Part shown: piece after piece, positions 24,525 through 64,000 of the stretch
Position numbering within the stretch: position 1 is the stretch's first letter
Layout of the letters: every line of letters starts with the position of its first letter
From: Microbotryum violaceum
Taxonomy: Eukaryota
Reading direction: 5' to 3'
DNA: 64,000 nt
NCBI GenBank assembly: GCA_001244265.2
Contig: CDLV01000004.1
Span: 744,001-808,000 of the forward strand
The notes under the pieces: generated by a model
Told to the model about the DNA's origin: nothing
Seen by the model: the letters and a program-made list of their open reading frames with translations, nothing else
Database searches by the model: none
Program-made: the position numbers and the translations under genes

Positions 24525-25521
24525 ATGACTCCGAGACCGGAGCAAAATCCGGGCGGAGACGCGAACCAGCAGCAGGAAGCCCAAGTCACCGTGCCGACCG
24601 AGACCAGTGTCCCAGACGCGATGACGACAGCTGGCGACAAACAACTCACTTCGACCGCTGCTCCTCCTGTGATACCTACAACGCATGCGGAAGAGAACAG
24701 GGAAGAACCAGGAGCAGGCCGAGCGCTGCCTCCCCCGCCTCCTCGTGCACCGAAGCCGTACGATCGTGTGCGCGAGATCACGCACATTTACGACGCGTTT
24801 GCCGACCGAGGTCCCCTAGAATTCAGGGTGGCCTTCAAAGGGCAAGGCAAGAACAAAACGGAATACGTCAAATCTTCCTCGCCGGAAATGAAACCCCTTT
24901 GGGACGAATACTACAACGGAGCGAGGAACATCCTGAACCGGTTTATGGAAAATCATGCCGAGTCGAAACTGGAGCTCCGAGATGCGCTGGTCGGTTCCAG
25001 CGCATGCAAAAAACTTGGTCAAAAGAGTAGAGCTGATTCCACCAAAGTTTTGGCTGACAGCGCGCCAAAGCGGAGCAACAACGTCTCGACCCAAACCATC
25101 TCACTCGGAAGGAGCGACAGGCTCGTTCGCGAGCGATTGAACAAAGGGCTGACGATAGTCGTCGGACCAACGCGCTCTTACAACTCGAAGTCGAGACGCA
25201 AGAGCTCACCCAACGCTGGCTCGAGGCCAACGGACTGATCCGCGACTACGCAGGCCCGCTTGGAAACCTGGGGGTCTACCGTCCGTTCCCCAGAAAGGGA
25301 TAACACATCAAAGAAGCCCAGACAGGACTTCGGAGGGGAGGGTGTAAGGCCGCCCCCCTTGAGACCAGGCCTTCGACCCCGTAGCCGACGTCAAGACTGA
25401 CACTGGCGCACGGACCCTCGGCCTCCCTCAATTGGGATGCCCTTCCCCATATCTCTCTTTCTCTCTTTCCTCTCACTGGGTAGTTTTACATCTAGCTGAA
25501 ACCCAGTAAAGACACCTTGCA
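24525..25521 (+). mobile_element. Gypsy-like 3' end: chromodomain-like ORF, PPT and LTR (25343-25521)
   Basis: EITHIYD..PLEFRVAFKGQG..TEYV, followed by GGAGGGGAGGG|TGTAAGG...CCTTGCA. Confidence 0.6.
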
Positions 25522-29645: not shown

Positions 29646-31061
29646 CATCTTGGTCCATAGCGTCTTCCACGTCCTTGGGAGGTGCTTCTTGGTCTTCGGC
29701 TTCTTCGTCGGCCTCGTCGTCGGCGTCGGCGACATCGGGTCGGGCTTTGGGCGCGGCTGAGGGCAACGGCGTGGGCGAAGAGGGCTCTGGGGTCGGCTCG
29801 GAGAGTCGGAGGCTTCGAAGGCAGGCGCAGTGGGAGGGGCTTCACGAGTGGCTGGCGTGGAGAGCGCAGCAATCGGTTTGGATCGAGTTATGATCGATTT
29901 TGGCGTGGCCGGAGGAGGGCTGGGGGATGGAGAGGTGGTCTCTGAGCTGGGGGACTCGGAGGATTTTTCAACGAGGGAAGAGGCAGTTCCCTGGTTGGAG
30001 GCAGGCTGGGGGGCAGCTTGAGTGGCAGTATTGGAAGGGAAATTGACAGAGAACTCGGGGCGAGCAGTCCTCGACAAAGAATTGGGCTGAGCTCTGTTGG
30101 ACAGATCTTCAGTCTGGGCAGCCAGATCCTGTTCCACTTGACATTTTTTGGTCGTGCGGTTGGGGGCGGAGGCCGCGGGGATCGACTTGGACCCGGCGGC
30201 GGGGGCGGCGGTGGTGACAGTGGAGGGACCCTGGGGGCTGGACGCGTGACGGCCTGAGCAATGCTGGGTAGCGTGCGAGGTGCTCGCGCAGGACTTGCAT
30301 GCCGGGGCGACGGAGCAATCCTCACGGACGTGAGCCGCGGAGCGGCAGAAGACGCAGTGGCGCATGCCGGTGATCCTTAGTGGGATTCGCTCAGTGACAC
30401 CGTCACAAGCAATAGAAAGTGAGGCAGGGGGCAAAAAATCTACACCCTTAAGGGCAAGGATAAAGTCGTACACCCCAGAGATGTGTTTTGTCTTTCCAAT
30501 GTATTGGATGTGACGGCGGAGGACCGTGCCATAGGCAGCGATCTGCTCATCGAATAGGCAGAGGCCCTCGGGGTCGGAGAAAAAGCCCGTAAGGGTGCAT
30601 TGTACAACACCTCCTCTAGTAGAGCTGTACAGCTTCTCGACTTTGCACAGAGTCTTGCCAACAGTGAGGCCGTTGGAAACCAGGGTGTCGAGATCGGCGG
30701 CCTTGGGAAAGCAGAGGCCACGCTGACTCTTAATGACGCATGGCATCGCGCCGGTAAGGCCAGGGTAGTGTTTGTCAAGCGCGAGGAGGACTTGCTCGAC
30801 CGAGGTTGAGGGTGGGGTGTTGATGATGTCACAATTCTCAATGTTGTGCATCAGTGGATGGGCAGCGACGGCAGTCGAGGCGTTGGCGGTGGCGTTGCCG
30901 TGCTTCGCAGCGGAGCGGGCGCCGACCGCGGCGGAGTATGATTTGGTGGTGGTGGCGGGGGCTTGGCCGGGAGGATCGGGAGGGTCAGGGCGAAGAGGTG
31001 ATATAGCAGCAGGGCTAGCGTTGTTGGTGTTGTTGTTGTTGTTGTCCATGTTTATGCTCAT
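29633..31061 (-). CDS. LINE ORF1 (gag-like, two CCHC knuckles), frameshifted near the 3' end
   Basis: KSYSAAV, CVFCRSAAHVREDC, CKSCASTSHATQHC. An acidic tail in another frame (DADDEADEEAED..DDEHS*) overlaps the ORF2 ATG. Confidence 0.85.
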
Positions 31062-31109
31062 GGTGTTGAGAAGAGTGAAAAATCAAGTCACTCCGAAGAG
31101 GGGGCCGAT

Positions 31110-32395: not shown

Positions 32396-34420
32396 TCAGG
32401 AGAAATGACTTGTTGGAAACCATCTGCGAGATAAAAACCTGAAAGCCAATCAGATCACAGCATGCTTGGGCTTCTAGCCCGGAACAAGCCTTACCTCGTG
32501 TCCACGCTTGCGATTAGTCCTTGCTCAATCTTCTCTTCTCCGCCAAGTAGCGCGAGCATGCGCCCAACGTTCGACGAGGCGCTCATCACCAACCCGTGCG
32601 TCACTTGAGCGAGCATTGTGATGTCGCGCACAAAGCCTTGCGCGACGCGCTCTCGGGCCTCAAAAGGCAGCATGTTGAACTCCAACTCGTCCTGCAACAA
32701 CGTGGAAAGCGCATATACCAGAGTCCACCCATTGAGCCTTGGGGCTTGGTGTTCGGAGTTCAGTGAAATAGTGGAGTGGACTCACAAAACCATTCTCAGC
32801 GACGCGCATACGTTGCTTTCCATGGATGGACTCGTCAGGAGCAATGACCTCGGATGGGTCTAGATCAGCAATGTCGATGACGTTGAAAGCTCTACCCAAC
32901 TTGTGCTTGGCAAACGCCGTCGATGCGGTGAGGCTGTCAGAGGCAACCAGGAGTACCGGTCGCTCGTCGAGGGAGAGAACGACACCAGTTCGCCGGACGC
33001 GCTCCACAAGGTGTATCGCAGCTACGAGATATTTCTCGATGGCGCGGTCATCGAGGTGGCTTGTCTTCGTTGGTGTGGCTTGCGGTAAAGTCGAGCGCCC
33101 GCCCGAAGTATCCATCAATGCCTGAGGTCCTATCCAGTTGATTTCCTTGTATTTGTCGCCTAGTCGAACATGCATACCGATGATGATCGGGGAAGCATCT
33201 CCACTCAATTGCTGTGCAGCTCGCAGCTGCCGAGTCAACGACTTGAGATTTGCCCGAGCGGCTCGCACGCGCACAGCTGCAGGCCTCGAAAGACGCCACA
33301 AGGCCGACAACGACTGAGCCTGTCGGGTAAATATAACCTGCAGCGCTGATGGCACCAGCTGGGATGCAAGCTTGAGCTCAGGCGTGGTCAAGCTGGCGCG
33401 ATCCGCAGCTAGGTGGACCAGCTCCTTCAGATCCTGGTGGTGAAGGACATCCATCTCACTAGGGGAAGTAAGGGTGTCCAACAGCGCTTTATCAAGCCCA
33501 TCGTTGTCTCGACTTCTCCACGTCACGTGGTCGAAGGTCGCCCAAGACTTGCGGACCGCGGCCTTATCAAGCGTCCTCGCTTTCCTGTCGAACTTAATCC
33601 TCGCCCTCCAGGTTGTCGAAGGCGGGGGCTTGCAGTCCAGCGCGGGGGCTTGGAAGACCGCCTCCCACGAGCCATAGTTCCACCGGGACGAATCGACCAA
33701 GAGGCTGTAGTTGAACATCTCGGCAAGAACCGCCATGCGGGTAAGCATGAGTACTTCGCTTCCGAAACCGTGTAAACCTGAATGCAGCACGACAAGTTGC
33801 GGTCTGATCAGTTTCTCTAGCCATGCAGAAAATATTATGACCCCGAACGAAGAATTCTTGAGCGCAAAACGAAACGCACCGGCCATGTTGAACAAAAGTG
33901 TTCGCTTGCATATTGCCGGCTTCTCGTTTGTGGAGACTGGTCGTTCCACGGCGTTGTATATCTTGTCAAGTCTCGAAGACGGCGACGACGACTGGGCCAA
34001 GGGCTCGTCGCCCCCGTCGGTCATATGCGCACCTTGATTCGCCGGTGCAAGCGACGAGTGGTGCCGATGCTTGTGCTCGTCATCGTGTCTGTGCTCGTGC
34101 CCAGGAGGCTGAGCTGTACCGGTTTCGCCTGGCACCCACGGTCGCTCGTCTCGAACGTTTCGCGATGCCAATTCGGCTTCGATGCGATGTTGTACGCCCA
34201 GGAGTATTTTTTCGGAGGGCCCAAAGACGACGAAGGCGGCTGTGAGAACGACGCAAATGAGGATCCGAAAAAACGCGAACTTGGAATGGGACCTGGCGAT
34301 GGCGATCGAGGCGTGGCGCATTTTGGCCATTGCTCGGCGAGGCGAACCCGTCGAGCCAACTGCCCCCGCCCCCCCAGGCGAACTCGGTGGGGTGACGAGC
34401 ACCGGTAACCGAGGCTTCAT
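32396..34420 (-). CDS. GT23/FUT8/NodZ-like alpha-1,6-fucosyltransferase-type glycosyltransferase, type II membrane, 4 exons, intact
   Basis: N-terminal TM (FFRILICVVLTAAFVVF); GLHGFGSE; IGMHVRLGDK; LLVASDS; GF|DELEFN; FVRDITML..LVMSASSNVGRM; SVDT|RWFPTSHFS*. Three GT-AG introns. Confidence 0.8.
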
Positions 34421-34867
34421 CCCCCTCAACGATGTTCTTCTTGCGCGAGACTACAATGCCGTTCTGCAATCGGCTGACCACTCCTCGACGGTGATGTTCC
34501 AGGAAGGCTCAGTGGGTGGCACTAGGGTTCCGCGTCTGGTGCCAGGGTTCGTGACAATGTCTGGGATGGTGATCAGGAGATTGTCGCGCGGAGCCTTGAC
34601 GCGACACCTCGCCAAATTGAATCGCGTCGAGTCGTCGTCTCGCAGGCGTCTGCGTATTCAGTCAATTTGCGATGTGTGCCGGTGGGTCGGTGTGCAGCGA
34701 AGAACGGCCGAGAAGTCGTCGGAACTCGGGCGTGCAAGGAGAACAAGGGGTTGGCGTGACAATAGCTCAGAAAGGGTTCGGGGTTTGACAGAAGGGGAAT
34801 GTGCGGCGCGACTCGTGCGGGCATTTAGGCCGTGAAGCGTTCCGCCGACGCGCTTTTACTACCTCTA

Positions 34868-37400
34868 CTAGGTTCGGCGGCACGCGGAGCGCGCCACCTC
34901 ACATTGAGAATCAGCAGTTCTGTTACTTTATTGCAGATGCCTACGGTTCTACACTGCTTTCATCTATGCGCAATCTTTGCTGACCTTGAGACCTTCGAGA
35001 GATCGCAGCGTTCACAGGCGGTGGATCCATTGGACGAAGTTGATCCTCGGGCAGTGGACGCAGTGCACTCGGTGACTGTGCGGCGACATCCACCGCGACG
35101 AAGGCGTTCAAATCCGCGCTGTAGAAGGTTTGAGCGTCACCCGGCAGCAGGTCGAGCACCATGTCGTTAATGTGATCCACCTGCGAATTTTTGGGCGTCA
35201 GTTTTGCTCGCTCTCGAAGTATTTGACTTTCGCCTATTGACATACCAGTGGGAACCCGTTAAATTAACGGGAGGATCAAATTCAAAAAATAGCAGGATAA
35301 TCGAACAGTCTGCATGATATCAGCGCAGAGGTTAAGAAAACACAATACGAAATACAGCAAAGAAACAAAATCCATTCATCTTACATTCATTGCCGAAACA
35401 GCCTGCATGTCGCTTGTTGCCGGACTTGGCTTCAAACACTCGTGCAATGAGATCCGGACGGTTGCATGCTTGAACGGCCCCAGTGCAGCCTTGGTGTCCG
35501 GTGAGTCGGGGTCGTACGTCATCGTGGTGAGCAGCGGAGGCTTTCCATGTTTGACAACGCACGCCATCGCATCCTGGTATCGCTGCGTGATGTCGCGATT
35601 TGGTTCGGGGTTAAGCCGTTGATGCCTTGGGTCGTGGTGAGGCGTAGGTTCTCTTGATGTAACCGGATGTGTTGAGTCAATCGGTCTTGACTTGGGAGTA
35701 CATCCGTAATTCACGAACTCCAGGAAGGGACGTTGGGTGCAATGCGGGATTGAGAAGTACTCGTCGCGTTTGGCAAGTAGTGCGCAAAGAATTGTGAACG
35801 CGAGACTCGCCACCTCGACCCCTTTACTTGACCTTCGTCCTAGGTGTTCAAAAGTTCAATTTCAGTCTGTGCTTGCGCCTTCGGTAGAATGGAACATCAG
35901 AGAAAGAGCCGAAGACGCGTACGTTCGCCATCACCATCCTCTTCGTCCCCTTCCTCGCCGTCTTCATCCTCATTGTCGCGGTCTTCGTCCTCCTGTTCGT
36001 CTTCGTCATCCAGACCGAGACCGGCAAGTACCTCGCGCAATTGGACACCATTGTCGATCTGCTCTCAGTTTCTGGCGATTGGCGGCCTGGCTTGGTGGAA
36101 CCCGCGCAAAGAGGAATGTTGGGGTGGAAGCCATCTTCCCCTGCAGGAAAAAGTAGTGGGTAACGGAGAGGCATCGCGGACGGATGGAGCGAGCTAACGA
36201 TTTGGTACTTGGGCCGACCATCGGGACATCGATCACCGTGCACCTGGAGAATAAGGTCTTGCAGTCCACGATCTCCCGTGTTGGTGTCGGAATCGCAGAT
36301 AAGCATCGCCATTTCCGTGCTCGACGTAGGCGGGTTGTGGGTGCGTCGGTCCCCGCCTGGCGGAAGGCAGAGGCGCAGGATCCACTCTTTGGCCGTATCC
36401 CAACCTGCGCGAGGTTTGGCCGATGCGAACTCCCTCACAAAGTGATTCTTGGTACGCAACATGGATTCTAGCTTGGTCAGCGTTGAACTTTGTATGCGAC
36501 TGTCTGCGCCGTCGGGTCCAAGTCGAGTGTCGGTGGCCTCGGCCGGGTCGATCAGCCATGTTTGAGCAAAGGTTGGGCATTGATTCACGGCAGGGATCAG
36601 GGCGCCGAGTCGATGGTAGAGGCGACCAAACACGCGAAACACGGGGGGCCTAGTTCCCAGTGCTGAGCCTTGCAGTGGGTGCACACGGCCGTCTGCGGGC
36701 CGAGGTCGTCGCGGATCGAAACGTGGGGCTTGAGGGGTTTGAGCGCGATTCGAGCCCGGCGCACTCGCCTTTGCGGAGGTGGTGGTGGGGCGAGCCCAGC
36801 GTCGAGTTGGCCATCGCGCTGACCACGCTGTCCGTTCTGCACAGCTGCACGGCCGGCTCGTATACGTGTCGCAATGCCAAGATGTTCGAGGGAGTGGCGC
36901 AGGATTATTTACGTGGTTTGATTTGTTGTTCAGCCCCTAATGCCGCTGGTTGAATGCCATACGGGCAAATTGGTTGTTCAGCCCCTAATGCTGCTGGTCG
37001 ACTGCCGGAATGACACTCCACCGCCGGCGCACCGCATCACGTGACAAACGCCAGCCCTCGCCTCGCACGTCAAGCAGAGCTCTGCTGTAGAAGCAATATC
37101 ATGCAAAGCCACGCGCTTGCGGTTCATTAAATGCAATATGAGTGGAAGCATTGTTTTATGTGAGCGAAAAAAAAGAAGGAAACTACTGGGAGCGCTGTAG
37201 CTTCGTTGGAACGGCGCGGAAAATACAAAAGTCACCACAGGGCTTGTACATGACTTCTGATCGGAACATGGACACCACAGGCAGGTGCGGCAGACACAAC
37301 AGTATGCTGGTACATCCACCACAGGCGGCCCGGAGGGCCGCAACCTAGTTAAAAACAGCGATTTTAGGTACATTCCTTAACTCACACTTTTTTTTTACTA
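34868..37400 (-). mobile_element. Internally deleted Helitron (Rep and PIF1 remnants, 3' terminus present)
   Basis: [41 protein letters not shown]; 3' hairpin and CTAG at 34868-34871. Confidence 0.9.
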
Positions 37401-37409
37401 GTTAGGGTA

Positions 37410-37542
37410 ATTAGCCGCGCGCCTCTAGCCTTCCAAGTGCGCGCGCCCTTAGCTCTTCTCTCTCTTCTCCAACTATCTTTACTACCATCTTTGGCTCTCA
37501 TACTTACGTACCTCGTGCCTCGGGCCTCAGATGTTCTAAAAC
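37410..37542 (+). mobile_element. Partial copia LTR, same family as 23442 and 62273
   Basis: Near-identical to 23503-23632. Confidence 0.85.
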
Positions 37543-37596: not shown

Positions 37597-47775
<10,179 letters not shown>

Positions 47776-53100: not shown

Positions 53101-54862
53101 GGCCTGGATGCACGAGAAGCAAGGAGTAACCTTTTCGTCCTTCAGAGTGATGCCAGTGATAGCCCCGGATTTGACGGCCAAAACGATCGCCGCAGGAGAT
53201 TGATGGCCCAACTTCCGATGTGCTTCCATCAACGTACAGGTTCCAGTGAGACGCTTAGCTCCGACCATTGAAGGCGGTGAGGATGACATGATAGGCTGAA
53301 CGGGAGCTGCATCCATGACAAACCCCCGACCAGGAAGCGAGCGCAGAATCGACTTGCCGCGGATGCTGAAAATGAGATTGCTTTGGGGACCAACAGCGTA
53401 CATCATCGATTCCAACAGACGGTCGATGGAGATAAAACCGCATTGAGCACCGGGCATGTAGTAGACCCTCTTAATGGTGATACGAGCGCCATATGAGGTA
53501 AGAAACGTCACTGAGCCATGACCGGGAGATTCGATTTGAGATTGATTGGCGACAGAAATTTTGAGAGGCTCAGAGACAACGTCCGATAGGACCGACTTGT
53601 CTCCAACGCAATGGACATTAGCACCCGAGTCAATGATCCATGGAAAACGTGGCATCGTTCACGAATAGGGGAAAGTGTAGGTCATCAATGCAGATTCATC
53701 TACACCAATGGCAGCTACGTTCGAATTTGAGTCCGAGGAAGCGGGAGCGCTCGCATCCTTGTTCCTGCTTGGACAGAGACGCCAACCACGCTCGTGTCCC
53801 AGTGCTTTGCAGCGCGAACAATACGACTTGGAGTAGTCCTTTTGCGCCGTGGTGGAAATACGGGTGACGAGGCTAGTATTGTCAACTATCCGCGCGGATA
53901 ACGATTCCTTTTGTTTGTTTCGGGAATCAGCCATTTCGACGTTCATCAGGAGTTTCGGATAGAACGTGTTCCAATCCATGTGGATGTCGATGTCGGAGGC
54001 AAGGTTCCCAACGATCGAGTCATACTGGGCTGGGAGCGACCAAACGAGCATGCCTGCAAACAGCCAATGCGGAAGCGGAGCTCCGAGGTTCTGAAAATCG
54101 GTCATGGCGATCTTGACCTTGTTGACGAATTCCTTAAAAGGAATATCCCCAGAGTAAGGTTGCGCTAGAGTGTTGAGGAGGTCCATAGTGCGACTCGGGC
54201 GACCGTGAGAGTGGAGACCACGGAGGGTGTCCCACATCTCGTACGCCGAGGTAAGATGAATCAAGTGAGACATCTGTTCCTCAGAGATCGAATTGGCGAT
54301 GTACTTGCATGCCAAATCGTTGCGGCGGATGACCCGTTCGCGATATTCCGCGACCTTGTCCGCAACTTGAACGCTGGTGAGCCTGGGCGAGGCGTCCGAG
54401 TGCGCAGAACCAGAGCCCCCCCCAAGCCCGCTAAAGTCGGAGGAGGCTGGTTCAACTGGCGCGACGAACGCAGTTGCATGTGCGATAACGAGCGTGGACC
54501 GATAGTCCGCGACAAGGGAGTCGATGGATTGATTGACGACATCCCATACTTTGTCGGCTCGAAGATTGATAAACGCACGTTGTGACCAGCTCTTGTACCC
54601 TTGTGTGTCCTTGAGATACAAGTGATTGCCCGACCCGTTGGGGAAGTCGGATTCGCCCGTTGAGCTCATAACCTGTTGCAACAAGGACTAAGAGGTACTC
54701 CACAACTCAGCTCCGAGATACACGAGTGAGATGATGAGAATAGCGTGGAGAAGGAACCCAGAAGGAAAAAAGATGCAAAGACAAAGATAGGCGCGCGCGC
54801 AGAATAAAGTATTAACCAAGACTAATAGCAATGAGTTAGGCTCTCAGACCCCACTTCTAACA
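50137..54862 (-). mobile_element. Full-length Ty1/copia nested in a copia
   Basis: 189-bp LTRs 50137-50325 and 54674-54862; TSD CTGAC; PBS GGTTATGAGC; WIIDSGA, RSDNGREF and LYVDD motifs. Confidence 0.96.
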
Positions 54863-56521
54863 CTGACAACAACCCACCTGATCCGAATCAGATTCCTGAG
54901 ATGGCTACAAGCCGGTGGTGCCTACGACGGAGCGGACTTCCGAGTTAGCCAAACGCTGGGGTGCTCTTGCAGGGTCCCACCGTCGGGGGGGGGGGGGGGC
55001 GGAGCAGCAAGCAATGTTTGTCAACGTGGGGACCATCTTGGGAGATGTGATTCCCCTCAACGAGCTTCCAGAATGGGAACAAGTCCTCAACGTCGTCGTC
55101 AACCTCAAAGAATGCAACGATTGGACCAACCTTTTGTCGATTGTTCAAGGATGCACCGAGGGCATCAGCCGAATTATGGAACTTGAAGCGTACCAGGTCT
55201 GGACCGGAAGTCCCGACGAGCCAACATACAAGCAAGCGATGGCCGGCGAGGATCGCGAGGATTGGTCCATTTCCCTCATGACCGAGTACTCGATTCTAAA
55301 CGGCATGAACACATGGGACAAGGAGGCCACCGATCCGCCGCCAGGGGTTCGGGCAATCCCAACGAAGGTTGTCCTCACCCGCAAGCGGAATGACAAAGGT
55401 GACATAATCAAGTACAAGGCAAGGATTGTCGCACGGGGGGATCTCCAGAACCATCACGGGGAAACATTCTCACCGACAGCTTGAATCGCCTCCATCCGGA
55501 TGATCAACGTCATAGCTCACGTCAAAGGGTATCGGCGGCTTCAGTTCGACGTCAACAGCGCATACCTTCACAGCCACATCACCAAACCACTATGGATCAA
55601 GCTGCTGGACGGTTCCACCCATCGACTGCGCAAATCCCTGTATGGTCTCAAGCAGTCGGGTCGTGAGTGGAACAAGGTCTTGCATGCTGCGCTCGTCGAT
55701 CGCGGTTTCAAGTGAATGGAGGAGGACTTTGGGGTCTACCGAAGGGTTCGCAACATCGGGGGCGTCGATTGCACGGCTCTCTTGGCCATCTACGTCGACG
55801 ACGGTCTTCTTGCCGGCGACAACAATCTCGAAGGGTTCCTCAGCGAGTTCGATCAACAATTCAAGCTCAAGCTCGGCGAGGTCGAGTCATTCCTGGGGAT
55901 GAAGATCGCCACCGATGACGCATCGGGGATCATGACCATTGACCAGTGCCACCAGATCGAGACCATCCTGAACAATCACGGGTTTGTGAACGCTTCCGCG
56001 GTGGCAACCCCAACCTCCGACAGCGATCAGCACTCAGATGGAGGTACTGCTCATCTCAAAGCTCAACTATCGCCAGGTTGTTGGTGAGCTCCTCTGGGTC
56101 TCAGGATGCACAAGGCCCGATATATCCTATGCGGTCACCCAACTGTCAAGACACTGCGCCGATCCGAAACCGGAACACTTTAGGCAAATGCGGCGAGTTC
56201 TTCGCTATCTGCGCGGCACAATTAATCACCGACTCGAGTACAATTGGCACTTGGGAATCGATGTGACCTTGTACTGCGACTCGGATCATGCAGCGGAGAA
56301 ATTGGGGCGTCAATCAATTTCGGGTTACACAGTCATCATGGCCGAGGCGGCGATCACATGGGCGTCCAAGCGCCAAGTATCGGTTGCCACCTCCTCCGTC
56401 CAGGCCGAGTATCAAGCTCTCTCGGCTGCTGCCTGGGAGACGCTGTGGATTCGCTCTCTGCTGTTCTCACTCGGGTTCCCTCCGTCTTCACCCACCATCA
56501 TTCATGGGGATTCAACGGGAG

Positions 56522-56852
56522 TGTTGCAACAAGGACTAAAAGGTACTCCACGACTCAGCTCCGAGATACACAAGTGAGATGATGAGAATAGCATGGCTTT
56601 GCAGTAACTAACCTAAGAGGTACTCCACAACTCAGCTCTAAGATACACGAGTGAGATGATGAGAATAGCGTGGAGAAGGAACCCAGAAGGAAAAAAGACG
56701 CAGACATTTTTTTATTTTTATTTGATAGACTTCATTAACAGCATAATTATATTAATACCTAGAAATCTTCGGAAAGATAGGCGCGCGCGCATAATAAAGT
56801 ATTAACCAAGACTAATAGCAATGAGTTAGGCTCTCAGACCCCACTTCTAACA
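56522..56852 (-). mobile_element. Rearranged solo LTR of the 50137-54862 family
   Basis: TG...CA ends and TSD GGGAG. Removing it restores the RNase H sequence GDSTG|AIAL. Confidence 0.92.
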
Positions 56853-57796
56853 GGGAGCAATTGCTTTGGCCGATCACCTGACCTCACACGCGACCACCAA
56901 GCACATTGCAGCACACTACCACTTTACTCGAGAACTTGTCTCGAACGGCATCATCGAGCTCCGATGGATCAGGACCAAGGAGATGGTCGCGGACGGATTC
57001 ACCAAGGACTCTCGCACGCACCGCATGAGTCCTTTGTTCGGATGCTTGGAATGGTGGATGCTCCCTCGCCAGGGGGCGTGTTGGAAGGGACTGCGCGAGC
57101 AGTAATGGCTAGAAGCGTCTTTGGGGTTTTTGGGTAGTTTAAGCCATTTTTGGCCAGGGAGGCGCGGACTGCGTCAGCGGCTGTGCAGAGTCCTCTTGAT
57201 TGGTTCCTCACCAATCATTGACTCTGCTATCAACCGTTGACTGAAGTTCGTGTTCTCGTCTCCCTGGACCAAAGATCGCCTCGCATCGAAATTTAACTGT
57301 TGCCGCCGCGGCCCCGGCGGCTGCGGCGGCTGGCCCGGCGAGGCCTTGCCTCAACGGCCGCCATTGTAGTTCATGGCAATCCACATCTCTCATCTGTACT
57401 GCGCCAGAATAAAGAGCCATTCTTTGGACCCGTGGGGTAGAACTTCTGCACATGCTGTACAAGCCCTACACCATGCCTCTGTCCAGGCGGAGGCCTATGT
57501 ATTTTGGTACACTGTCAGCACCATCCCGGAATTACCTCCTACTCCCAGTACCATGGGCGATTACACCAGAGCTCCAGAACCATACCCGGACTGGCAACCT
57601 AGCGCCGCCGGGACCGTCCCGAGGTCATTCCAGCGTCCAACTTTCAGGCCGCCACCCATGTCCAGGGAGTTGCCGGCGAAGCGGAAAAGGAAAAAAAAGA
57701 AAAGAAGGGAAAAAAGGGAGGATGTCATACATTGCCAAAATAGGTATACATGTAATGTAATGATTCCACACGGTCTATACTACGGCTAAACAGGCG

Positions 57797-60700
57797 TTAC
57801 AGATACAGTCTGATTAAGCACAGAGGTCTGAGCCTGAGCAGCACTCGCGTTTGGACACAGACAGTCCTCAGCTTTCTAGCCTTGCCTTTCGTCGCCTTGC
57901 TATCCACACCCTGACAGAACCGTCGAGAGGGCGGATTTCCTGCAATCATCTCATCGGACTCCCCAAACTCCCTCCCGCAATCTGCGCACGGATTACGGCA
58001 CGGGTCTCGCCCCGAACCTTGCGAGCCTTTTGCTCGGCAGTCCGCACGTCCGCAAAAACGACAGTGCTTTTTACGCCTTTTTCCGGCTCCCTCGACTCCA
58101 TTATCAGCGGTCAAAGCAAGGGTCGCCGCACTTGTTTCTTGGAAAGCCTGTATGGCGACAGTTTGAGGTTCTGAAGCGACCACCTCCGCTTCCGAGCGCC
58201 GCCCCAGGGTTGGCGGAGCATGTCCGATCAAAGGTTTTGCCGGCAGCATGTCGACGTCTTGAGTGCAATCTGGGTCAAGCACTTTTTTTTGGAGCGTCTT
58301 GATGTCATCCCCTGCCATTGCCAAAGTTGCTTAAGCATTGGCGAGCGTCGTACTTTTTGACATCCAAGTGATGATGTGCTCGGGCATCTATTGAATGGCA
58401 CGAACGTCGTTAGCCCGGTTTGCGTGCGAGTCGGTGTGAGTGAAAGAACGCCCACTTTATAGAAGACACCATCACCATCTGCGTACTGATTCCAATCTCG
58501 AGTTATCTTGTTCACGCGCTTCTCTTCGCTCCAGTCTGGTGGCACGCGGCTGAGCAAGTACTTGAAGAGCGCGCGCTCTTTTGGAGAGTGCTCGTGCAGA
58601 ATCACAAATCGAGTTCCTTGGCGTTCAGCAAGCCAGTCATGCCGAGGCTTCAGACGTTGTACTGTTAAAGTTGTCGATGTTGGCCAGCTACGTGGTTTCC
58701 ACTCGAGAGGTTCCGAGCGTGGGACAGGGGTGAGAGGCACATACGTCTCGAGGTTGAGCCCTGACTGGGAGCTCTTTAACAAGTCGACGCGTGCCACACC
58801 TAAGCGCTCCGAGGACTCCGCGTATAGCGTCGGATCGATGATCTTGGAGGCTGTGGACTCGCGGACAGGCAAAAGATGTGCGGTTTTTTGTCGCAGTCGA
58901 TACAGATCCAGAGTGAGCCATAAGTCGAAATGACCGATGAAAGCCACCCCAGTTCGATTGTATGTGCCAACCTGCAAGTTTGAATCGTGAATGAGCTTCT
59001 TGTTGCATGTAGTCAACACGACCGATACACGTGCCGACTGACTGTAAGATTGTGTCCTAGTACATAGTCCAGCAGGCGAGCGTTTGCATGACGCGGAGTG
59101 ACGCCTGACTTAGCGAAGCGCGCGCGGAGATTTCGATGGATGCCACCTTCGAGGCCGTTCTTGCCGCGCCAACCTGAATACAAGCGGACACCATCATCAG
59201 CTTGTTCCATCAGGTCCACGACAACGTCCGAGGTCGGTGTAAAGCTCGATGCCCACTGGATCAGAAAGCTGTCCCTTTCGAACGATTCCGAGACATCTTT
59301 TCGCGGCGAGGAGTGCAGCCTTATTGAAGAGGGGCTGCTTTGTTTTAGCATCGAGCAACGACCCGAACGCCTCGAAAACTTCCCTGACCAATGGCTCAAG
59401 AATGCTTGGAGGAGGAATCGTTCGTCGGACACGCTTCCAGATGTATTTGGCGTGAGCGGGCGACCGTGTGGCTTCGTCGAAAGTCATCATCGCTTTGGCG
59501 ACTCGTATCGACACTAGGTACTTGTCGTCTAGGTTGACGACATAGATGGCATCGGAGAGAGCGCGAAGGAAAGCTCTTGTAGCTCCGTGCTTTTTCGATA
59601 GATAGATCCTCTGGAAAAAATTGGAAAGGATCCATGAGAATTCGGGGTTGGGGATCATCGAGCAACGAGGCTGACCAGATGAAAGAGATGAAAATCGAAT
59701 GAGCCTCAAATCAAACTCAACCTAGGAACCGGAGGGACCAACCTTTGTTTCCGTCGGCAGCGTCTAAGATGGCCGAGATCTCAACCGCAGTCGTCTTGCA
59801 ACGTTCGAGTAAGAGCGCTTCTTCGAACTCAGCGGTCGCCGCATCGAGACTGTCGTTGAAGTCCTCCGTGTGCTCTTCCATCTCCGTTTCTCTCGTGCAG
59901 GAATTCGCTACGGCGCCAACGTCCAGTGCTTTTGAAAGCGAAGATATCTGAGCCGAGGACAGCGACGGCTTGTGAGCGGACGTGAACGTGTGAGCTGAGC
60001 TGTGGACGGAACTCTCGATGGTGACCTCATCGTCCAAGTCGACCACGAGAGCATCGAGCGCAAAAAGCAACGGGAATGATCCGTCACCGCATTGGGAGCG
60101 AACGTTGCTGTCAGTGTTCTGTTTAATTGAGAACGCTCGTAAGGCCAAAAGATCACGCTGTGGAAAGTCATCGCAGTTGGTGTTGTATTTGGGAACGAAC
60201 GCTCCAGGAATGAGGATTTGCGTGATGGCAACGACAGCGCGGCTCTTGTCCCATTTGAATCCGTGAAACTCGGGTGGAGGCGCGCACATTTCGTTGATCA
60301 AGGAATCAACTGTCTGGATGACACCCCCCGCGATTGGACGATCAGGTTCATACATGATAGCGACTTGAGTGCCCACACGCGGAAGTACCAGAGGCGACAA
60401 TGGTCGCGTGTGACTTTTACTGATTGCCTTGTAGACGAGAAGCGACGCGTAGGTGTTGAGTGCAGCGTACATGATGTGGCGTGGGGGCAGCGTCGTCTCA
60501 GCCCAATCCATTGATCGACGAACTGATTCGTCTTTCGGCAGCCGTTTCTTGAGGAAGCGTTTCGAAAAGTGCGCGAGGCTTCGAGATCCAACTCCTCTCC
60601 CGAGCATGTGGCCGTTCAGGTTCGCGTGCTGCGCCAGGTCCAATCCACCGCAATGCTTGAAGGTTTCGGTAAGACTGATCGGATTCTCCTCATCGATCGC

Positions 60701-62875
60701 AAGTTCCCAGCGCTCCGCGTTTGTGATGGCGTTGACAATGCGAGTGAGGTCGCCAGCAACGCCGACACCCACTTTCAAGATATCCGCGCGTTCGAGAAAA
60801 TGCCCAAAGGGCGGGGCAAACACCATTTGACGCACTTTTGTATGATCTGCAAGAGCTGTAGACATACAACAATTTGGTAATTTTTTTTGTTCGACTTTAA
60901 GTGGAAGAGCACGGGTACGAAAAGCTCACTTGAATCACATGAATGAACAAGTCTCCCTCCAGTGATTCCCAGGCGAATTGGACGACGTCAACGGCTTTCT
61001 TGGGGGCCGCAATGGCCATGTTGTGATACGAGTTTGCGGGAGCATTTGCCCATTTGGCGTCAACACCAACCACAAGTTTTCCGTCTTTGGGGATGTTTTC
61101 TGTTATCTGCCTCAGCACTTGGGTCAACGCAGAAACGGTGTTCACTAGAATAGGGGTTGTCTCAGGAGGTAGCATGAGGTCGCCTTGGCGCGGGCCTGCG
61201 TTGGTGCCGAGAATCGGAGCAAGCGAGGGGAGCGTTTGTATCAAGAATGTAGTGTCTTGGTCGGGCTGATCCGTGTAGCAGATGGATGGTTGTTCGTGAC
61301 CATACAATTTCAGATGCTTTGACATGTCCTCGAGTGGTGATTCGAACGGCGCGTGGCCTTTGGTTGCGGTGAGGACGGTGAGTCGAACTTCGCTGTACTC
61401 GTTTCCGACCATCAGGAGCGCATGAAAGGGAGGAATGCCATTGATCTTGGCGATTTGCTTCGGGACCTGAGATGAAGAGAGACTCATTGGGTTAGCACAA
61501 TTCGAATTGATCAAGAGTTTGCTTGCCCCTTTTCCAAGTTCTCACCTTGTAGCTGTGATCGCGTGACATGATTGTGCAAGGGGCCAATGAAACATGGTGG
61601 CGTATGAGCGACTCGTGTCTGAGAATGGGCAAAGCAAAGAGGGTCAGCAGAGAAGATTAGAAGCAAGTATCCGCAATGCTTGATACTACAATCCGGCCTT
61701 ACTCTTCTATTTTCGCATTGAAAAAATTCGCAAGAACCTTCGATGTTGGCACATAGCCGAAATTGCCCGCCGGGTCATCCCAATCACTGATGTCCTGATA
61801 AGGTCCCGGCTTTTGGCGCGCGAGCATGGCCGACCTATAGTCGAGCTCCAGCCTGTTGTGGGCGGCACGATGAAAGCAGACAAGCATGTCGGAAATTTGC
61901 TCGGCTCCCAGACCGTAGTGGAAGGAAGATCGCACTAGATCGAACACCTCCGAGGTAACGGCGGTGCGATGTGACAAACAGAACGGGAACATCGAGCGCA
62001 GTGATGGATCCAATTGGCCAAGGACCTCTGGCGACCAAGGCCGATACGTTTTGGAGCACTTGTAAGAGCGGCCGATGAGATAGACGGACTCGCGGAGACC
62101 ACACGCTCGGCGTGGCCGATCCAAGAACCCGTTCAGCCTCAACATGTCTTTTTTGAGGACGGCTTCGTTGAGCTCGCACTCCATGCACCACAGGCCAACA
62201 CCCGCTCGCTTGTCATCTGGCTGGCCAATCATTAGGAGGGGATCCCAAAAGAAGAACTGTGGTGCGTAGATGTTTTAGGAACCTGAGGCCCGAGGCACGA
62301 TGTACGTAAGCACGAGAGCCAAAGAAGATAGTAAAGATAGTTGGAGAAGAGAGAGAAGCGCTAAGGGCGCGCGCACTTGGAAGGCTAGAGGCGCGCGCGC
62401 GGCTAATATCAACAACTAGGTATTAAACTATTCTAAGTGGGATGAAACAGTAATACCCTTTTGACAAGATGTCCAGATTGGCGTTGGAGATGCGGCCGTC
62501 ATAGAGCCTAGTCCAAGCCGACTTGACAGGTAGAAAACCGTGAACGAGCTCATCACCGCTCTTGTGGTCGTGTGCTTTGTTGGAATAGTTGTTAACATGC
62601 CTGATATGCGCGAGGTGGTGGGTCGTTTGCGTTTGGAGCCAAGCGGGGTGCTTCCAACGTTCACTTCCTTTGGTTGCCCCTGTGGCGACTTCATCTTCGT
62701 CGCCGTCGTAAAGCTTACCGCCTCCTTCATTGCAAAGGGGTACGCCAGCCTCGATGAAATCTGACGCCTGCATGAAGGCTTTTACCTCTACTGGCAATGG
62801 CCAAGTTGACTGCGGGCATTGCTGGCTCGAGTGTAATACACCCCGTTGGAGTGTACACCTGAGCAACGACGACAA
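57797..62875 (-). pseudogene. Spliced DDE transposase-like gene (DUF6729-like N-terminus) with internal WRN-type 3'-5' exonuclease and C-terminal Cys-rich finger
   Basis: FFFWDP..C..C..YLIGRSYKC..FPFCLSHR; SRDHSYK; GNEYSEVR; CYTD; VGVDAKW..KVGVGVAGD..LDL..SL..LPKDESVR..DW..YAALNTY; LMDPFQ; RGKNGLEGGIH; GHFDLWL; CRFCGRADC. Confidence 0.75.
62273..62466 (-). mobile_element. Solo copia LTR inserted in the transposase-like gene
   Basis: Reverse complement of the 23442 LTR, with TSD AGATG. Removing it restores NANLDI-YAPQFFFWDP. Confidence 0.9.
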
Positions 62876-62899
62876 GGATCACAGGACCAAAGTATGTAG

Positions 62900-64000
62900 A
62901 ATTGACACTGGACACTCGTATCAGTCGCTGGAGAGAGACTAAGAGTGCCCAGGCGCGCGTCTCCTCTTCCTAAGGCCCAGGTGCACGGGCCTTACACTCT
63001 CCACCACCTAAACCAAACTCCCCTCCCTCCTTACACCCTCCCTCCTTGCCTTGTCCTCCCCCGCCTTCCCACTCTCCCACTCTTCCAACGCTGCGGTGTC
63101 TTCCAGGTGTGAGCATGGCTCCCATGTGTTGTCGCTGTCTGCCCCCCCTTCCATTTCACCAAGAACCTCTTCCTTGACCCCTTCCCCTTTTCGTCCACAA
63201 TCCGTTCTACCTCCCACTCCTCGTTTCCTTGGACGATAATGGCCGCTGGTTCCGTTGCCTCTCGTCCTGGGAACACCACCCCATTGTTCTTTACCCAGCG
63301 TCGGAGCTTGGAGGCGTGGAAGACGTTGTGCGACTTGTCCCCCGCCTTGAGCTTCAGCTTGTAATTTGAGGTTTCGGGTCGTGCTGCTAGGACTTCGTAG
63401 GGGCCGTCAAACCGGGGAAAGAGTTTGGCTGACCGTGCTTCCCCATCGGCCTTGTACCGCAGTCGTCGATCCCGCGAGTTGACTAAGACCATGTTGCCAA
63501 CTGCAAACCCGGGCTCCGGTTTCCTCGCCTTGTTGCTCTGGTTGGCCTGTCGGATCTTTGCAATTGCCAAATTGTCTCGGGCTTCCGCAACCGCTGCTTC
63601 ACGTTGTTCCACAATGGATTTGACTGCCTGTGACGTGGTTGAGCCCTCCACTGGGGTGATCGGTGTCAGCTCCGGCGTGAACCCAAGTACCACTTCAAAT
63701 GGCGTCTTCCCCGTCGACCTGTTCATACTGGAGTTGATCACAAACTCCACCGTAGCCAAGTGCTTTGACCAGTCATTTTGCCGTCGGTTGACCATTGTTC
63801 GCAGGACTTGGATCACGGTCCGATTTGTTCGCTCGCTTCGGCCATCCGTTTGTGGGTGGAAAGACGTCGATGTTGCCAGTTTCGTTCCCAGCTGGCCCAT
63901 GTACGCTCGCCAGAACTCGCTTGTGAAGAGCTTGTCGCGGTCGGAGACCAGCACTCGTGGCATGCCGAAGTGTCGATGCCACCCCTCAAAGAACCGGTCC
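62900..64000 (-). mobile_element. Ty3/gypsy chromovirus 3' part: integrase, chromodomain, PPT and start of the 3' LTR at 62996
   Basis: [44 protein letters not shown] is followed by TGTAAGG; related to 46240-47450. Confidence 0.92.

What the first reader, a model, noticed from the sequence alone, without database searches (positions are those of the whole stretch)
57797..62875. DDE transposase-like protein with a WRN-type 3'-5' exonuclease inside its catalytic core
Seen: after splicing and removing the solo LTR, one minus-strand gene reads in this order: Cys-rich N-terminus, RDHSYK (~61550), GNEYSEVR, YTD (~61270), a full DEDDy/WRN exonuclease (VGVDAKW ~61060 to YAALNTY ~60455), DPFQ (~59625), RGKNGLEGGIH (~59150) and a Cys-rich tail. 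Established: D..D..(C/D)xxH..N..E is the layout of IS256/ISL3/Mutator-type transposases, and their insertion domain follows the second D. Inference: the exonuclease sits at that point, suggesting a poorly characterised fungal DNA transposon group that carries its own end-processing nuclease. This copy is dead (frameshifts, catalytic substitutions).
Basis: partly seen in the sequence, partly recalled or inferred. Interest (0 to 1): 0.8.

Follow-up and report, generated by a model that had tools for sequence, protein, structure and literature searches.

The report
Dead Dada transposon with built-in exonuclease
This is a broken copy of a Dada-type DNA transposon, a family described in 2013 whose fungal members carry a WRN-like exonuclease inside the transposase, so the odd architecture is real but already known.

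Summary
On the minus strand of window 57,797-62,832 lies one spliced, decayed gene. It is colinear with 1,200-1,650-aa fungal proteins. The family order is DUF6729 zinc-finger region, D..D, WRN-type DEDDy exonuclease, small beta-barrel, acidic linker, DxxH, RGTNxxE, Cys-rich tail.

An AlphaFold model of a relative was searched against solved structures. Residues 326-1041, which span the exonuclease, align with the catalytic domain of the IS256-family transposase ISCth4 (Z 11.2). Residues 447-657 align with the WRN exonuclease (Z 24.7).

The architecture is not new.

The window copy is a pseudogene. It has three frameshifts, one in-frame stop, a 193-bp repeat insertion, an interruption at about 62,832, and substitutions in the exonuclease and DxxH motifs.

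Termini, target-site duplication and target could not be determined. Verdict: a new, Microbotryum-like member of a known kind, of low interest.

The parts
57797..62832 (-). Decayed, 5'-interrupted coding region of a Dada-superfamily transposase, the only copy in the window
   Evidence: tblastn of ten family proteins hits only this locus. The hits are colinear, for example P0016 aa 288-1512 and P0067 aa 413-1620.
62467..62832 (-). Remnant of the N-terminal exon. Homology stops at about 62,832, where a high-depth repeat begins.
   Evidence: P0001 aa 133-270 matches at 75% identity. Loose ends lie at 62830-62831 in X1, X18 and X19. A 2000-nt X13 contig aligns up to 62832 and runs on for 861 nt unlike the window.
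62268..62466 (-). Inserted 193-bp repeat plus one copy of a 6-bp duplication (ACATCT on the minus strand); a possible solo LTR
   Evidence: The joint 62267->62467 (skips 199 bases, 6 ambiguous letters) is in X1 (2 contigs), X13 and X19. Two further copies lie in the window.
61703..62267 (-). Exon with the DUF6729 / N-terminal zinc-finger region (CMEC 62176-62187, SYKCSK 62050-62067; 3 of 4 Cys kept)
   Evidence: Pfam PF20499 matches at E 8.3e-11. The family pattern is CPxC..x31-33..CxxxxC.
61619..61702 (-). Intron 1 (GT..AG)
   Evidence: X19 joint 61618->61703; sequence.
61546..61563 (-). First catalytic D motif, RDHSYK (family DHSHK)
   Evidence: Coordinates. D is kept in 27 of 28 relatives.
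61465..61543 (-). Intron 2 (GT..AG)
   Evidence: X19 joint 61464->61544.
61266..61406 (-). GNEYSEVR (61383-61406) and the second catalytic D in CYTDQ (61266-61280)
   Evidence: Coordinates. D is kept in 29 of 30 relatives. P0021 aa 394-447 gives a weak Pfam MULE match, E 0.077.
60449..61070 (-). WRN-type DEDDy 3'-5' exonuclease domain with two catalytic substitutions: ExoI VGVDAKW, ExoII KVGVGVAGD, ExoIII YAALNTY
   Evidence: The family profile matches the WRN exonuclease at 7e-39. VIA gives Z 24.7 to 2e6l_A and Foldseek gives E 4.2e-11.
60856..60929 (-). Intron 3 (GT..AG) inside the exonuclease; coordinates approximate
   Evidence: Sequence. X19 replaces 60817-60929 by 40 letters of diverged exon (tables 5 and 5c).
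60780..60800 (-). Frameshift 1 (frame change within the exon 59743-60855)
   Evidence: and comparison with P0002.
60029..60406 (-). Conserved small beta-barrel domain after the exonuclease
   Evidence: Family consensus GTPVxL..AxGxIS..VLVPGA. The model has pLDDT 77.7. The best match is Z 7.1, Tudor/PWWP/KOW/SH3-like, which is not specific.
59743..60028 (-). Acidic, poorly conserved linker
   Evidence: The equivalent stretch of P0074 (residues 768-836) has pLDDT under 50.
59671..59742 (-). Intron 4 (GT..AG)
   Evidence: X19 joint 59670->59743.
59617..59635 (-). DxxH motif read as DPFQ (H to Q), followed by frameshift 2 in a T run
   Evidence: P0005 of Microbotryum lychnidis-dioicae reads DPFH in one continuous frame. 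H is kept in 26 of 27 relatives.
59200..59207 (-). Frameshift 3
59136..59168 (-). Catalytic E motif RGKNGLEGGIH (family RGTNxxEGGVH)
   Evidence: Coordinates. E is kept in 23 of 25 relatives.
58970..59040 (-). Intron 5 (GT..AG), just after HNLTV (59040-59057)
   Evidence: X19 joint 58969->59041.
58389..58456 (-). Intron 6 (GT..AG in the window sequence)
   Evidence: X19 joint 58388->58457, listed ends TA..CT with 1 ambiguous letter. Sequence; exon frames.
58331..58333 (-). In-frame TAA stop
   Evidence: MPEHII at 58370-58387, stop 18 codons later.
57908..58066 (-). C-terminal Cys-rich cluster (CxxCx4C..Cx3CxxC..C)
   Evidence: Coordinates. The same cluster is in P0035, P0064, P0067 and P0082 and in P0114 and P0124.
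63031..63999 (-). Flanking Ty3/gypsy-type pol end (SH3_Tf2-1 and chromodomain). Not part of the element, but probably the retroelement that interrupts it.
   Evidence: Pfam hits. Depth in the read laying bins from 62684 upward is about ten times that of the Dada body in X1, X18 and X19.

Best explanation
The locus is a dead copy of a Dada-superfamily DNA transposon. It belongs to the fungal lineage whose transposase carries an internal exonuclease, the lineage first described as Dada-1_LB and Dada-2_LB of Laccaria bicolor.

The intact protein is built as follows:
- AT-hook-like RGRP motifs.
- A CCCC zinc-finger region, which is Pfam DUF6729.
- An RNase-H-like DDE catalytic core of the C/DxxH class, whose nearest solved fold is the IS256-family transposase ISCth4.
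- A Cys-rich C-terminal tail.

Between the strand that carries the second D and the DxxH helix, the core is interrupted by about 450 residues. These hold a WRN-type DEDDy 3'-5' exonuclease, a small beta-barrel and an acidic linker.

Shown here: the domain order, the conservation of both sets of catalytic residues across the family, and the fold of both nuclease modules.

Inferred: the DDE site cuts and joins the transposon ends in a cut-and-paste reaction, and the tethered exonuclease trims 3' ends or flaps made during excision or integration, as Kojima & Jurka proposed.

The window copy cannot do any of this. It is interrupted at its 5' side, carries a 193-bp insertion, three frameshifts and a premature stop, and has lost the exonuclease ExoI E and ExoIII D and the DxxH histidine.
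For: Motifs and order.

Family architecture: 17 of 26 long relatives scanned carry both DUF6729 and DNA_pol_A_exo1 in that order. The window is colinear with them.

Conservation in the 30-sequence alignment A2:
- Transposase residues: D1 27/28, D2 29/30, DxxH D 26/27, DxxH H 26/27, E 23/25.
- Exonuclease residues: D 28/30, E 29/30, D 27/29, Y 29/30, D 29/30.

Fold, from the AF2 model of P0074 (pLDDT 72):
- VIA-align against 48,161 chains gives WRN exonuclease 2e6l_A at Z 24.7 over residues 447-657.
- ISCth4 transposase 6xg8_A scores Z 11.2 with 217 residues aligned over model 326-1041.
- PFV integrase 4bac_A scores Z 10.1 over 342-1036.
- So the two halves of the core pack together across the insertion.

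Sequence: the family profile matches WRN at 7e-39, EXD2 at 4e-24 and mut-7 at 3.5e-16.

Literature: PMC3706591 (main text read) describes the DDE plus DxxH motifs, the N-terminal CCCC and C-terminal CCHC fingers, the introns, and the DEDDy exonuclease between the second D and DxxH in Laccaria bicolor and Ectocarpus. The spacings it gives for Dada-U6_DR (D567, D635, E811; first Cys 178 residues before D1) fit P0021 (D361, D431; DxxH to E 154 residues).

Laccaria: the C-terminal half of the family occurs in L. bicolor S238N-H82 (P0138, E 1.4e-68; motifs DPWH and RGTNSTE).

Multicopy: there are 8 rows from Lentinula raphanica, 3 from Ephemerocybe angulata and 2 from Mycena floridula. At least two divergent lineages occur in Microbotryum (P0001/P0005 against P0002/P0003).

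Decay.
Against: No direct comparison with a Repbase Dada sequence could be run, because Repbase is not available and the paper's alignment is a closed supplement. Membership therefore rests on architecture, motif spacing, host range and one L. bicolor hit that covers only the C-terminal half and has no Pfam match.

No animal relative was recovered by sequence. Every organism-named hit is fungal (23 of the 32 hits carry an organism name). Only the ESM Atlas pointed to Chordata clusters, and that is a lead, not a test.

The hallmark of well-defined Dada elements is insertion in tRNA or snRNA genes with a 6-7 bp TSD. It was not seen. There were 0 tRNA and 0 Rfam hits in the window, 0 tRNA genes in 29 metagenome loci and 0 Rfam hits in 18. 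No termini could be defined.

The exact CCHC pattern of the paper was not verified in the Cys-rich tail.

The model protein P0074 itself has N in place of the DxxH aspartate.

Two of the three frameshifts lie in or beside homopolymer runs, and no listed contig of the likely same organism (X1) spans them. They could be assembly errors. The insertion and the 5' interruption are structural.

The role of the exonuclease in transposition is untested anywhere, to my knowledge.
Confidence: 0.85

Rival explanations
1. The gene is a domesticated, host-retained descendant of a Dada transposase, like dDada of cyprinid fish, rather than a selfish element. The window copy would be a recently lost version of it.
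For: Contigs of run X19 that are about 96-97% identical to the window are spliced at all six introns. P0005 of M. lychnidis-dioicae reads through the DxxH and E region in one frame. The DPFQ motif recalls the DxxQ of dDada (PMC8869645, passages). Copy number in Microbotryum looks low: only 2 hits in the word-index search and 3 close hits in the HMMER scan.
Against: The window copy is broken and lies among retroelements. Microbotryum holds at least two lineages only 37-58% identical to each other, on different contigs. Related Agaricomycetes hold many paralogues. The catalytic residues of both nucleases are conserved family-wide, as expected of active elements. X19 is only guessed to be RNA, and transcription also fits an active transposon.
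Confidence: 0.07
2. The family is a separate, still unnamed superfamily of IS256/Mutator-like transposons that only resembles Dada.
For: No direct sequence link to a named Dada entry was made here. No small-RNA-gene target was found. 'DUF6729' occurs in 0 papers of the library.
Against: The one described group with a DEDDy exonuclease between the second D and DxxH is Dada of an agaricomycete, Laccaria bicolor, and the family studied here is spread through Agaricomycetes including L. bicolor. The motif set and spacings agree. The L. bicolor families are named without a target in Table 1 of the paper.
Confidence: 0.05
3. The arrangement is an artefact: a transposase fragment and an unrelated WRN-like exonuclease gene lie side by side and were read as one gene.
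For: The Microbotryum gene models are fragments. P0001 holds only the N-terminal part, and P0003 holds only the exonuclease.
Against: The same order occurs in one continuous protein in 17 of 26 long relatives from many genera. The spliced X19 contigs listed lie on single exons or cross one or two introns. The AF2 model packs the N- and C-terminal halves of the core together around the exonuclease.
Confidence: 0.02

Closest known systems
Dada superfamily, exonuclease-bearing families Dada-1_LB / Dada-2_LB (Laccaria bicolor) and Dada-1_ES (Ectocarpus); Kojima & Jurka 2013, PMC3706591
   Same: Both have the DDE triad plus DxxH, an N-terminal CCCC finger, a Cys-rich C-terminus and introns. Both place a DEDDy exonuclease between the second D and DxxH. 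Both occur in basidiomycete hosts, and neither shows TIRs.
   Different: The host here is Microbotryum-like (Pucciniomycotina; nearest full-length relative Sporobolomyces johnsonii P0016). No tRNA or snRNA target or TSD was seen. This copy is dead. A conserved beta-barrel follows the exonuclease, which the paper's main text does not mention.
IS256 family / ISCth4 transposase (PDB 6xg8) and eukaryotic MuDR/MULE
   Same: Both have an RNase-H-like core with a C/DxxH motif, an alpha-helical stretch before E, and a TNxxE-type motif around the catalytic E (the MULE/IS256 form of that motif is recalled, not from a call). ISCth4 is the best transposase fold match, at Z 11.2 with 217 residues aligned.
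   Different: Sequence similarity is below threshold: Pfam MULE scores 13.9 bits against a cut-off of 27.6, and no transposase appears in the profile search of PDB sequences. In ISCth4 the CxxH motif follows the second D by 21 residues; here the distance is about 440-460 residues.
WRN / EXD2 / mut-7 (Nibbler) DEDDy 3'-5' exonucleases, Pfam DNA_pol_A_exo1
   Same: The fold and all five DEDDy residues are shared family-wide.
   Different: Here the domain is embedded inside a transposase core, not attached to a helicase or standing free. In the window copy the ExoI E and the ExoIII D are substituted.
dDada, domesticated Dada-U6 of Cypriniformes (PMC8869645, passages only)
   Same: Both are Dada-derived, both have the DxxH motif changed to DxxQ, and both show transcripts.
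   Different: dDada is an intact, orthologous, conserved gene. The window copy has frameshifts, a stop and insertions.

Membership tests
Dada superfamily | [quoted passage not shown] | tested here: met
   Family: D 27/28, D 29/30, DxxH D 26/27, H 26/27, E 23/25. The window keeps D, D and E, but H is Q.
Dada superfamily | RNase-H-like transposase fold related to MuDR/hAT/P/Kolobok/IS256 | tested here: met
   The model of P0074 matches ISCth4 6xg8_A at Z 11.2, rmsd 4.2, 217 residues aligned, model 326-1041. It matches PFV integrase at Z 10.1. These are 2 of the 50 rows listed; the other 48 are exonuclease matches.
Dada superfamily | N-terminal CCCC zinc finger about 135-180 residues before the first D | tested here: met
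   CPxC..x31-33..CxxxxC was found by pattern in 10 of 22 relatives, 172-195 residues before D1 in the nine where D1 was also located, and is in the consensus. The window keeps 3 of 4 Cys. The spacing differs in detail from the paper's Cx4C..Cx2C.
Dada superfamily | C-terminal CCHC zinc finger | tested here: inconclusive
   A Cys-rich cluster (CxxCx4C..Cx3CxxC..C) is present in the window and in P0035, P0064, P0067, P0082, P0114 and P0124. The exact C-C-H-C pattern was not established.
Dada superfamily (fungal and brown-algal families) | [quoted passage not shown] | tested here: met
   In the window the order is D2 at 61266-61280, exonuclease at 60449-61070, DxxH at 59621-59635.
Dada superfamily | Introns in the transposase gene | tested here: met
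   Six GT..AG introns read in the window. All six are removed in X19 contigs and in none of the DNA runs X1 and X13.
Dada superfamily | 6-7 bp target-site duplication; no terminal inverted repeats | tested here: inconclusive
   No inverted repeat brackets the locus. The ends could not be defined in the window or in metagenome copies, so no TSD could be read.
Dada superfamily | Site-specific insertion in multicopy small RNA genes (tRNA, U1, U6) | tested here: inconclusive
   There were 0 tRNA and 0 Rfam gathering hits in the 64-kb window and only chance-level hits at E up to 5 in 56-64 kb. There were 0 tRNA genes in 29 loci and 0 Rfam hits in 18 loci. Split gene halves would escape these scans. 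The paper names no target for the L. bicolor families.
Dada superfamily | Significant sequence similarity to a named Dada transposase (Repbase) | not testable with these tools
   Repbase is not held and Dataset S1 is a closed supplement. Indirect evidence only: P0138 of L. bicolor S238N-H82, E 1.4e-68, C-terminal half only.
MuDR / MULE (Pfam PF10551) | Match to the MULE transposase domain above Pfam's cut-off | tested here: not met
   Best match is P0021 at 13.9 bits, E 0.077, against a cut-off of 27.6. There was no hit in the 4 other full-length proteins scanned at E up to 10.
DNA_pol_A_exo1 (PF01612), WRN-like | Pfam match and DEDDy residues | tested here: met
   24 of the 26 relatives scanned match at E up to 0.001, 22 of them above the 23.6-bit cut-off. 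The window's own piece scores only 13.2 bits, E 0.077, with E to K and D to N substitutions.

The most novel reading that the evidence does not exclude
The exonuclease-bearing fungal Dada lineage may differ from animal Dada in more than the extra domain. It may not target small RNA genes at all: none was seen beside the window copy or in the metagenome loci scanned (29 for tRNA genes, 18 for Rfam families). It may still be live or co-opted in the anther-smut clade, where a copy about 96-97% identical to the window is transcribed and correctly spliced at six introns. If so, the built-in WRN-like exonuclease and the adjoining beta-barrel could mark a mechanistically distinct branch, for instance one with 3'-end trimming coupled to cleavage.
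Probability: 0.2. Interest if true: 0.4.

Novelty: new member of a known kind. Interest (0 to 1): 0.15.

Why it matters
The result corrects a high first-stage score. The striking architecture, a proofreading-type exonuclease inside a transposase core, is genuine but was published in 2013 as a feature of fungal and brown-algal Dada transposons.

- The family extends into Microbotryomycetes (Microbotryum, Sporobolomyces).
- Pfam DUF6729, which no paper in the searched library mentions, corresponds to the N-terminal zinc-finger region of these Dada transposases.
- A predicted structure supports the split RNase-H core, with an IS256-family transposase as the nearest solved fold.
- A conserved small beta-barrel follows the exonuclease.

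The function of the exonuclease in transposition remains untested.

Tried and rejected
- Whole genome: none is held, so no copy census, termini or TSD could be obtained from the host genome.
- Pfam on the window pieces: only DUF6729 passes. The exonuclease piece scores E 0.077. No MULE, ISL3, KDZ or CACTA family appears.
- Pfam at E up to 10 on five full-length relatives: only a sub-threshold MULE hit and a DUF6431 hit at E 0.64.
- Profile of A2 against PDB sequences: exonucleases only, no transposase.
- Foldseek on the whole model: every row listed is a 3'-5' exonuclease domain or a complex that contains one. The transposase match appeared only in the VIA-align search of all representatives.
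- ESM Atlas with P0021 850-1262: unnamed Chordata and Basidiomycota clusters, and one cluster with DUF6729 on 12% of members. This is a lead only.
- Animal relatives by sequence: none recovered. One search was limited by my own E cut-off of 1e-10.
- Literature: 'DUF6729' gave 0 papers. 'Mutator-like' plus 'exonuclease domain' gave nothing relevant. Iyer et al. 2014 (PMC3918813) is not held. PMC5751038 and PMC6446971 do not mention an exonuclease. The Microbotryum TE preprint does not mention Dada in its main text.
- Sequencing runs: no RNA holder was listed. X18 and X19 are only guessed to be RNA.
- Small RNA targets: ARAGORN and Rfam found none in the window or in the metagenome loci.
- Inverted and direct repeats around the locus: only chance-size matches.
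- Termini from metagenome copies. L003 and L017 are 84-87% alike, with a left boundary near TCATACCGGTGTC, but the right end runs off the L003 contig. L008/L012 and L037/L047 gave no crisp boundary.
It was repeated with the closer alignment A5.
- RIP-like index of the Dada body: -0.17, not raised. The two exonuclease substitutions are nevertheless of the CGA-to-CAA type.
- Beta-barrel domain: best Z 7.1 and no chain at Z 8 or more, so no specific family can be assigned.
- Tandem 20-bp arrays after the ORF: found in only 2 of 24 loci, so not a family feature.

Full report
**What is in the sequence.**

Stop-to-stop frames on the minus strand between 57.8 and 62.9 kb, read with the DNA, give one split gene.
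- RDHSYK, 61546-61563
- GNEYSEVR, 61383-61406
- CYTDQ, 61266-61280
- VGVDAKW, 61050-61070
- KVGVGVAGD, 60749-60775
- YAALNTY, 60449-60469
- MDPFQ, 59621-59635
- RGKNGLEGGIH, 59136-59168
- a Cys-rich tail, 57908-58066

The exon 61703-62267 matches Pfam DUF6729 (E 8.3e-11). The exonuclease piece matches DNA_pol_A_exo1 only weakly (E 0.077). tblastn of ten family proteins against the window finds only this locus. The hits are colinear with full-length proteins, for example P0016 aa 288-1512.

**Splicing and insertions.**

I laid contigs of four public runs on 54-64 kb. Run X19 (organism B, guessed to be RNA) holds contigs about 96-97% identical to the window. They skip 61619-61702, 61465-61543, 59671-59742 and 58970-59040, each with CT..AC on the + strand, which is GT..AG on the coding strand. 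They also skip 58389-58456, where the window itself reads GT..AG. They replace 60817-60929 by 40 letters of diverged exon, which removes the intron at about 60856-60929. The DNA runs X1 and X13 show none of these joints. The six introns are therefore real, and a close relative is probably transcribed.

A joint from 62267 to 62467 is present in X1, X13 and X19. It shows that 193 bp plus a 6-bp duplication were inserted in the window copy. The same repeat occurs at 23451-23632 and 37416-37542. It starts with TG and is high-copy by depth. Whether it is a solo LTR was not shown.

Homology ends at about 62,832. There, contigs of three runs have loose ends, a 2-kb X13 contig continues unlike the window, and depth rises about ten-fold in three of the four runs. 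Upstream lies the end of a Ty3/gypsy-type pol.

**Decay.**

Exon-by-exon translation and tblastn frames show the following:
- one frame change in exon 59743-60855 (about 60790)
- two frame changes in exon 59041-59670 (about 59620 in a T run, and about 59203)
- an in-frame TAA at 58331-58333

P0005 of Microbotryum lychnidis-dioicae reads DPFH..RGTNGLEGGIH in one frame across the same stretch.

The window has K where 29 of 30 relatives have the ExoI glutamate. It has N where 29 of 30 have the ExoIII aspartate. It has Q where 26 of 27 have the DxxH histidine.

One caveat applies. Two frameshifts lie in or next to homopolymer runs, and none of the listed X1 contigs spans them, so assembly error is not excluded for those. 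The insertion and the 5' interruption are structural.

**The family.**

An HMMER scan of 1.84 billion representatives with the 402-aa exonuclease ORF gave 99 hits. Of 26 hits scanned with Pfam, 17 carry DUF6729 followed by DNA_pol_A_exo1 in proteins of 1,050-1,650 aa.

Named members come from these sources:
- Agaricomycetes: Hericium, Pilatotrama, Antrodiella, Amanita, Grifola, Mycena, Lentinula, Armillaria, Agaricus, Laccaria and others
- Microbotryomycetes: Microbotryum lychnidis-dioicae, M. silenes-dioicae, Sporobolomyces johnsonii

Several genomes hold many paralogues. Lentinula raphanica gives 8 of the 32 rows.

The alignment consensus reads, in order:
- RGRP AT-hook-like motifs
- CPxC..CxxxxC
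- DHSHK
- TNExGEIR
- YTDN
- D.EW..KVG..D..YAALDA (the exonuclease)
- GTPV..VLVPGA (a beta-rich block)
- a variable acidic linker
- VLKDxFH
- about 150 residues
- YRCxRGTNxxEGGVH..HNL
- a conserved tail, in many members ending in a Cys cluster

Both catalytic sets are conserved.

**Fold.**

An AlphaFold2 model of P0074 was built with a 30-sequence alignment (pLDDT 72). It has strands 346-352, 370-375 and 381-387, helix 396-408 and strand 416-419. This is the usual beta1-3/alpha1/beta4 of an RNase-H fold, with D350 and D420. Next come the exonuclease (about 450-657), a beta domain (about 672-755) and a disordered stretch. The model then resumes with strand 875-877 and helices up to 1034.

Foldseek ranks the WRN exonuclease first (2e6l, E 4.2e-11, TM 0.87 on the target). 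VIA-align against 48,161 chains gives three relevant matches:
- 2e6l_A at Z 24.7 over residues 447-657
- at rank 30, the ISCth4 transposase 6xg8_A at Z 11.2 (217 residues aligned, model 326-1041, chain 151-391)
- at rank 42, PFV integrase at Z 10.1 (model 342-1036)

The other 48 listed rows are exonuclease-type matches confined to about 443-773.

ISCth4 is an IS256-family transposase with D175, D241, E348 and C262/H265 at the start of its alpha-helical insertion domain (PMC7780238, passages). The two halves of the core therefore pack together around the inserted exonuclease, and the insertion lies before the C/DxxH motif, not in the usual insertion domain. By sequence, the family profile matches WRN (7e-39), EXD2 and mut-7, but no transposase. 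Pfam MULE stays below threshold.

**Comparison with what is known.**

A full-text search for transposase plus DEDDy led to Kojima & Jurka 2013 (PMC3706591). I read its main text. It defines the Dada superfamily by these features:
- a DDE transposase with a DxxH motif
- distant similarity to MuDR, hAT, P, Kolobok and IS256
- an N-terminal CCCC and a C-terminal CCHC finger
- introns
- 6-7 bp TSDs
- no TIRs
- insertion in U6, U1 or tRNA genes

[quoted passage not shown] This is the architecture found here, in the same fungal class.

The residue spacings given for Dada-U6_DR fit P0021 once the insertion is set aside. The C-terminal half of the family occurs in L. bicolor S238N-H82 (P0138). Muszewska et al. 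2017 (PMC5751038, passages) count 1,023 Dada copies in fungi of four phyla.

I could not align against Repbase or the paper's Dataset S1, so membership is inferred, not demonstrated by sequence.

**What was not found.**

No tRNA or Rfam family lies in the window. ARAGORN found no tRNA gene in 29 related metagenome loci, and Rfam found no family in 18 of them. No inverted repeats bracket the locus. Pairs of related metagenome copies gave at best one boundary. The termini, TSD and target of this lineage therefore remain open. The paper also names no target for the L. bicolor families.

**Mechanism.**

Shown: two conserved nuclease modules in one polypeptide, with the folds of an IS256/MULE-like DDE transposase and a WRN-like exonuclease.

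Inferred: DDE-catalysed cut-and-paste transposition, with the tethered exonuclease trimming 3' ends or flaps. The small beta-barrel that follows may help hold nucleic acid. Its best match is Z 7.1 to Tudor/PWWP/KOW/SH3-like barrels, which is not specific. None of this can operate in the window copy.

**Verdict.**

The locus is a new, dead, Microbotryum-like member of the known Dada superfamily.

Noticed in passing
window 62268-62466; 23451-23632; 37416-37542: A short repeat of about 193 bp (TGTCAAAAGGG...CCTAAAA on the strand of the Dada gene) occurs three times in the window at 89-93% identity. Its depth in the read laying bins is several times to about twenty times that of the Dada body in the two DNA runs. 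In the Dada copy it is flanked by a 6-bp duplication. The copy at 23.5 kb abuts a copia-type integrase ORF (21961-23475). It may be a solo LTR or another short element.
   Followed up: partly
window 58389-61702 (six introns): Contigs of run X19 (organism B, guessed to be RNA) are spliced exactly at the six predicted introns of a copy about 96-97% identical to the window. The family is therefore probably transcribed in a sister lineage. Whether that copy is intact was not visible.
   Followed up: partly
window 60029-60406 (-); P0074 residues about 672-755: A conserved beta-rich domain follows the exonuclease in the whole family. Folded alone (pLDDT 77.7), it resembles small SH3/Tudor/PWWP/KOW barrels only at Z 7.1 or less. 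It is not mentioned in the main text of the Dada paper.
   Followed up: yes
L003 11480-12007; L017 15015-15496: Two related metagenome copies carry an array of 23-26 tandem 20-bp units (consensus about GTTCGAAACAGTGGGCTCGG) some 700 bp after the transposase stop codon. The GTTCGAA core recalls a tRNA T-arm or B box (recalled, not tested). The array is present in only 2 of 24 loci examined.
   Followed up: partly
L047 839-3295 (+) and 5912-3493 (-): One metagenome contig holds two partial copies of the transposase gene in tail-to-tail inverted orientation. This is either a real inverted duplication or an assembly artefact.
   Followed up: no
window 54000-64000: Where the four runs differ from the window, the window more often has A or T where the runs have G or C. 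In X1 there are 77 A>G plus 75 T>C changes, against 51 C>T plus 52 G>A. This fits extra C-to-T decay in the window's repeat copies. The TCG-based RIP-like index of the Dada body is nevertheless not raised (-0.17).
   Followed up: partly
window 59621-59635: The DxxH motif reads DPFQ. The domesticated fish gene dDada also has DxxQ (PMC8869645, passages). This is probably coincidence, since the close Microbotryum relative P0005 has DPFH.
   Followed up: partly
window 29544-31082 (-), 32660-34450 (-), 35848-36936 (-), 38095-38949 (+), 24495-25238 (+): Five long stop-free frames (247-596 aa) have no Pfam match at E up to 0.001. They lie in a window otherwise rich in copia and gypsy remnants.
   Followed up: no
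family proteins, N-terminus (e.g. P0067 aa 99-109, P0016 aa 94-103): Full-length Agaricomycete and Sporobolomyces members start with one or two RGRP/GRPRK AT-hook-like motifs (Pfam AT_hook below threshold). This part is missing from the window copy, which is interrupted at about 62,832.
   Followed up: no
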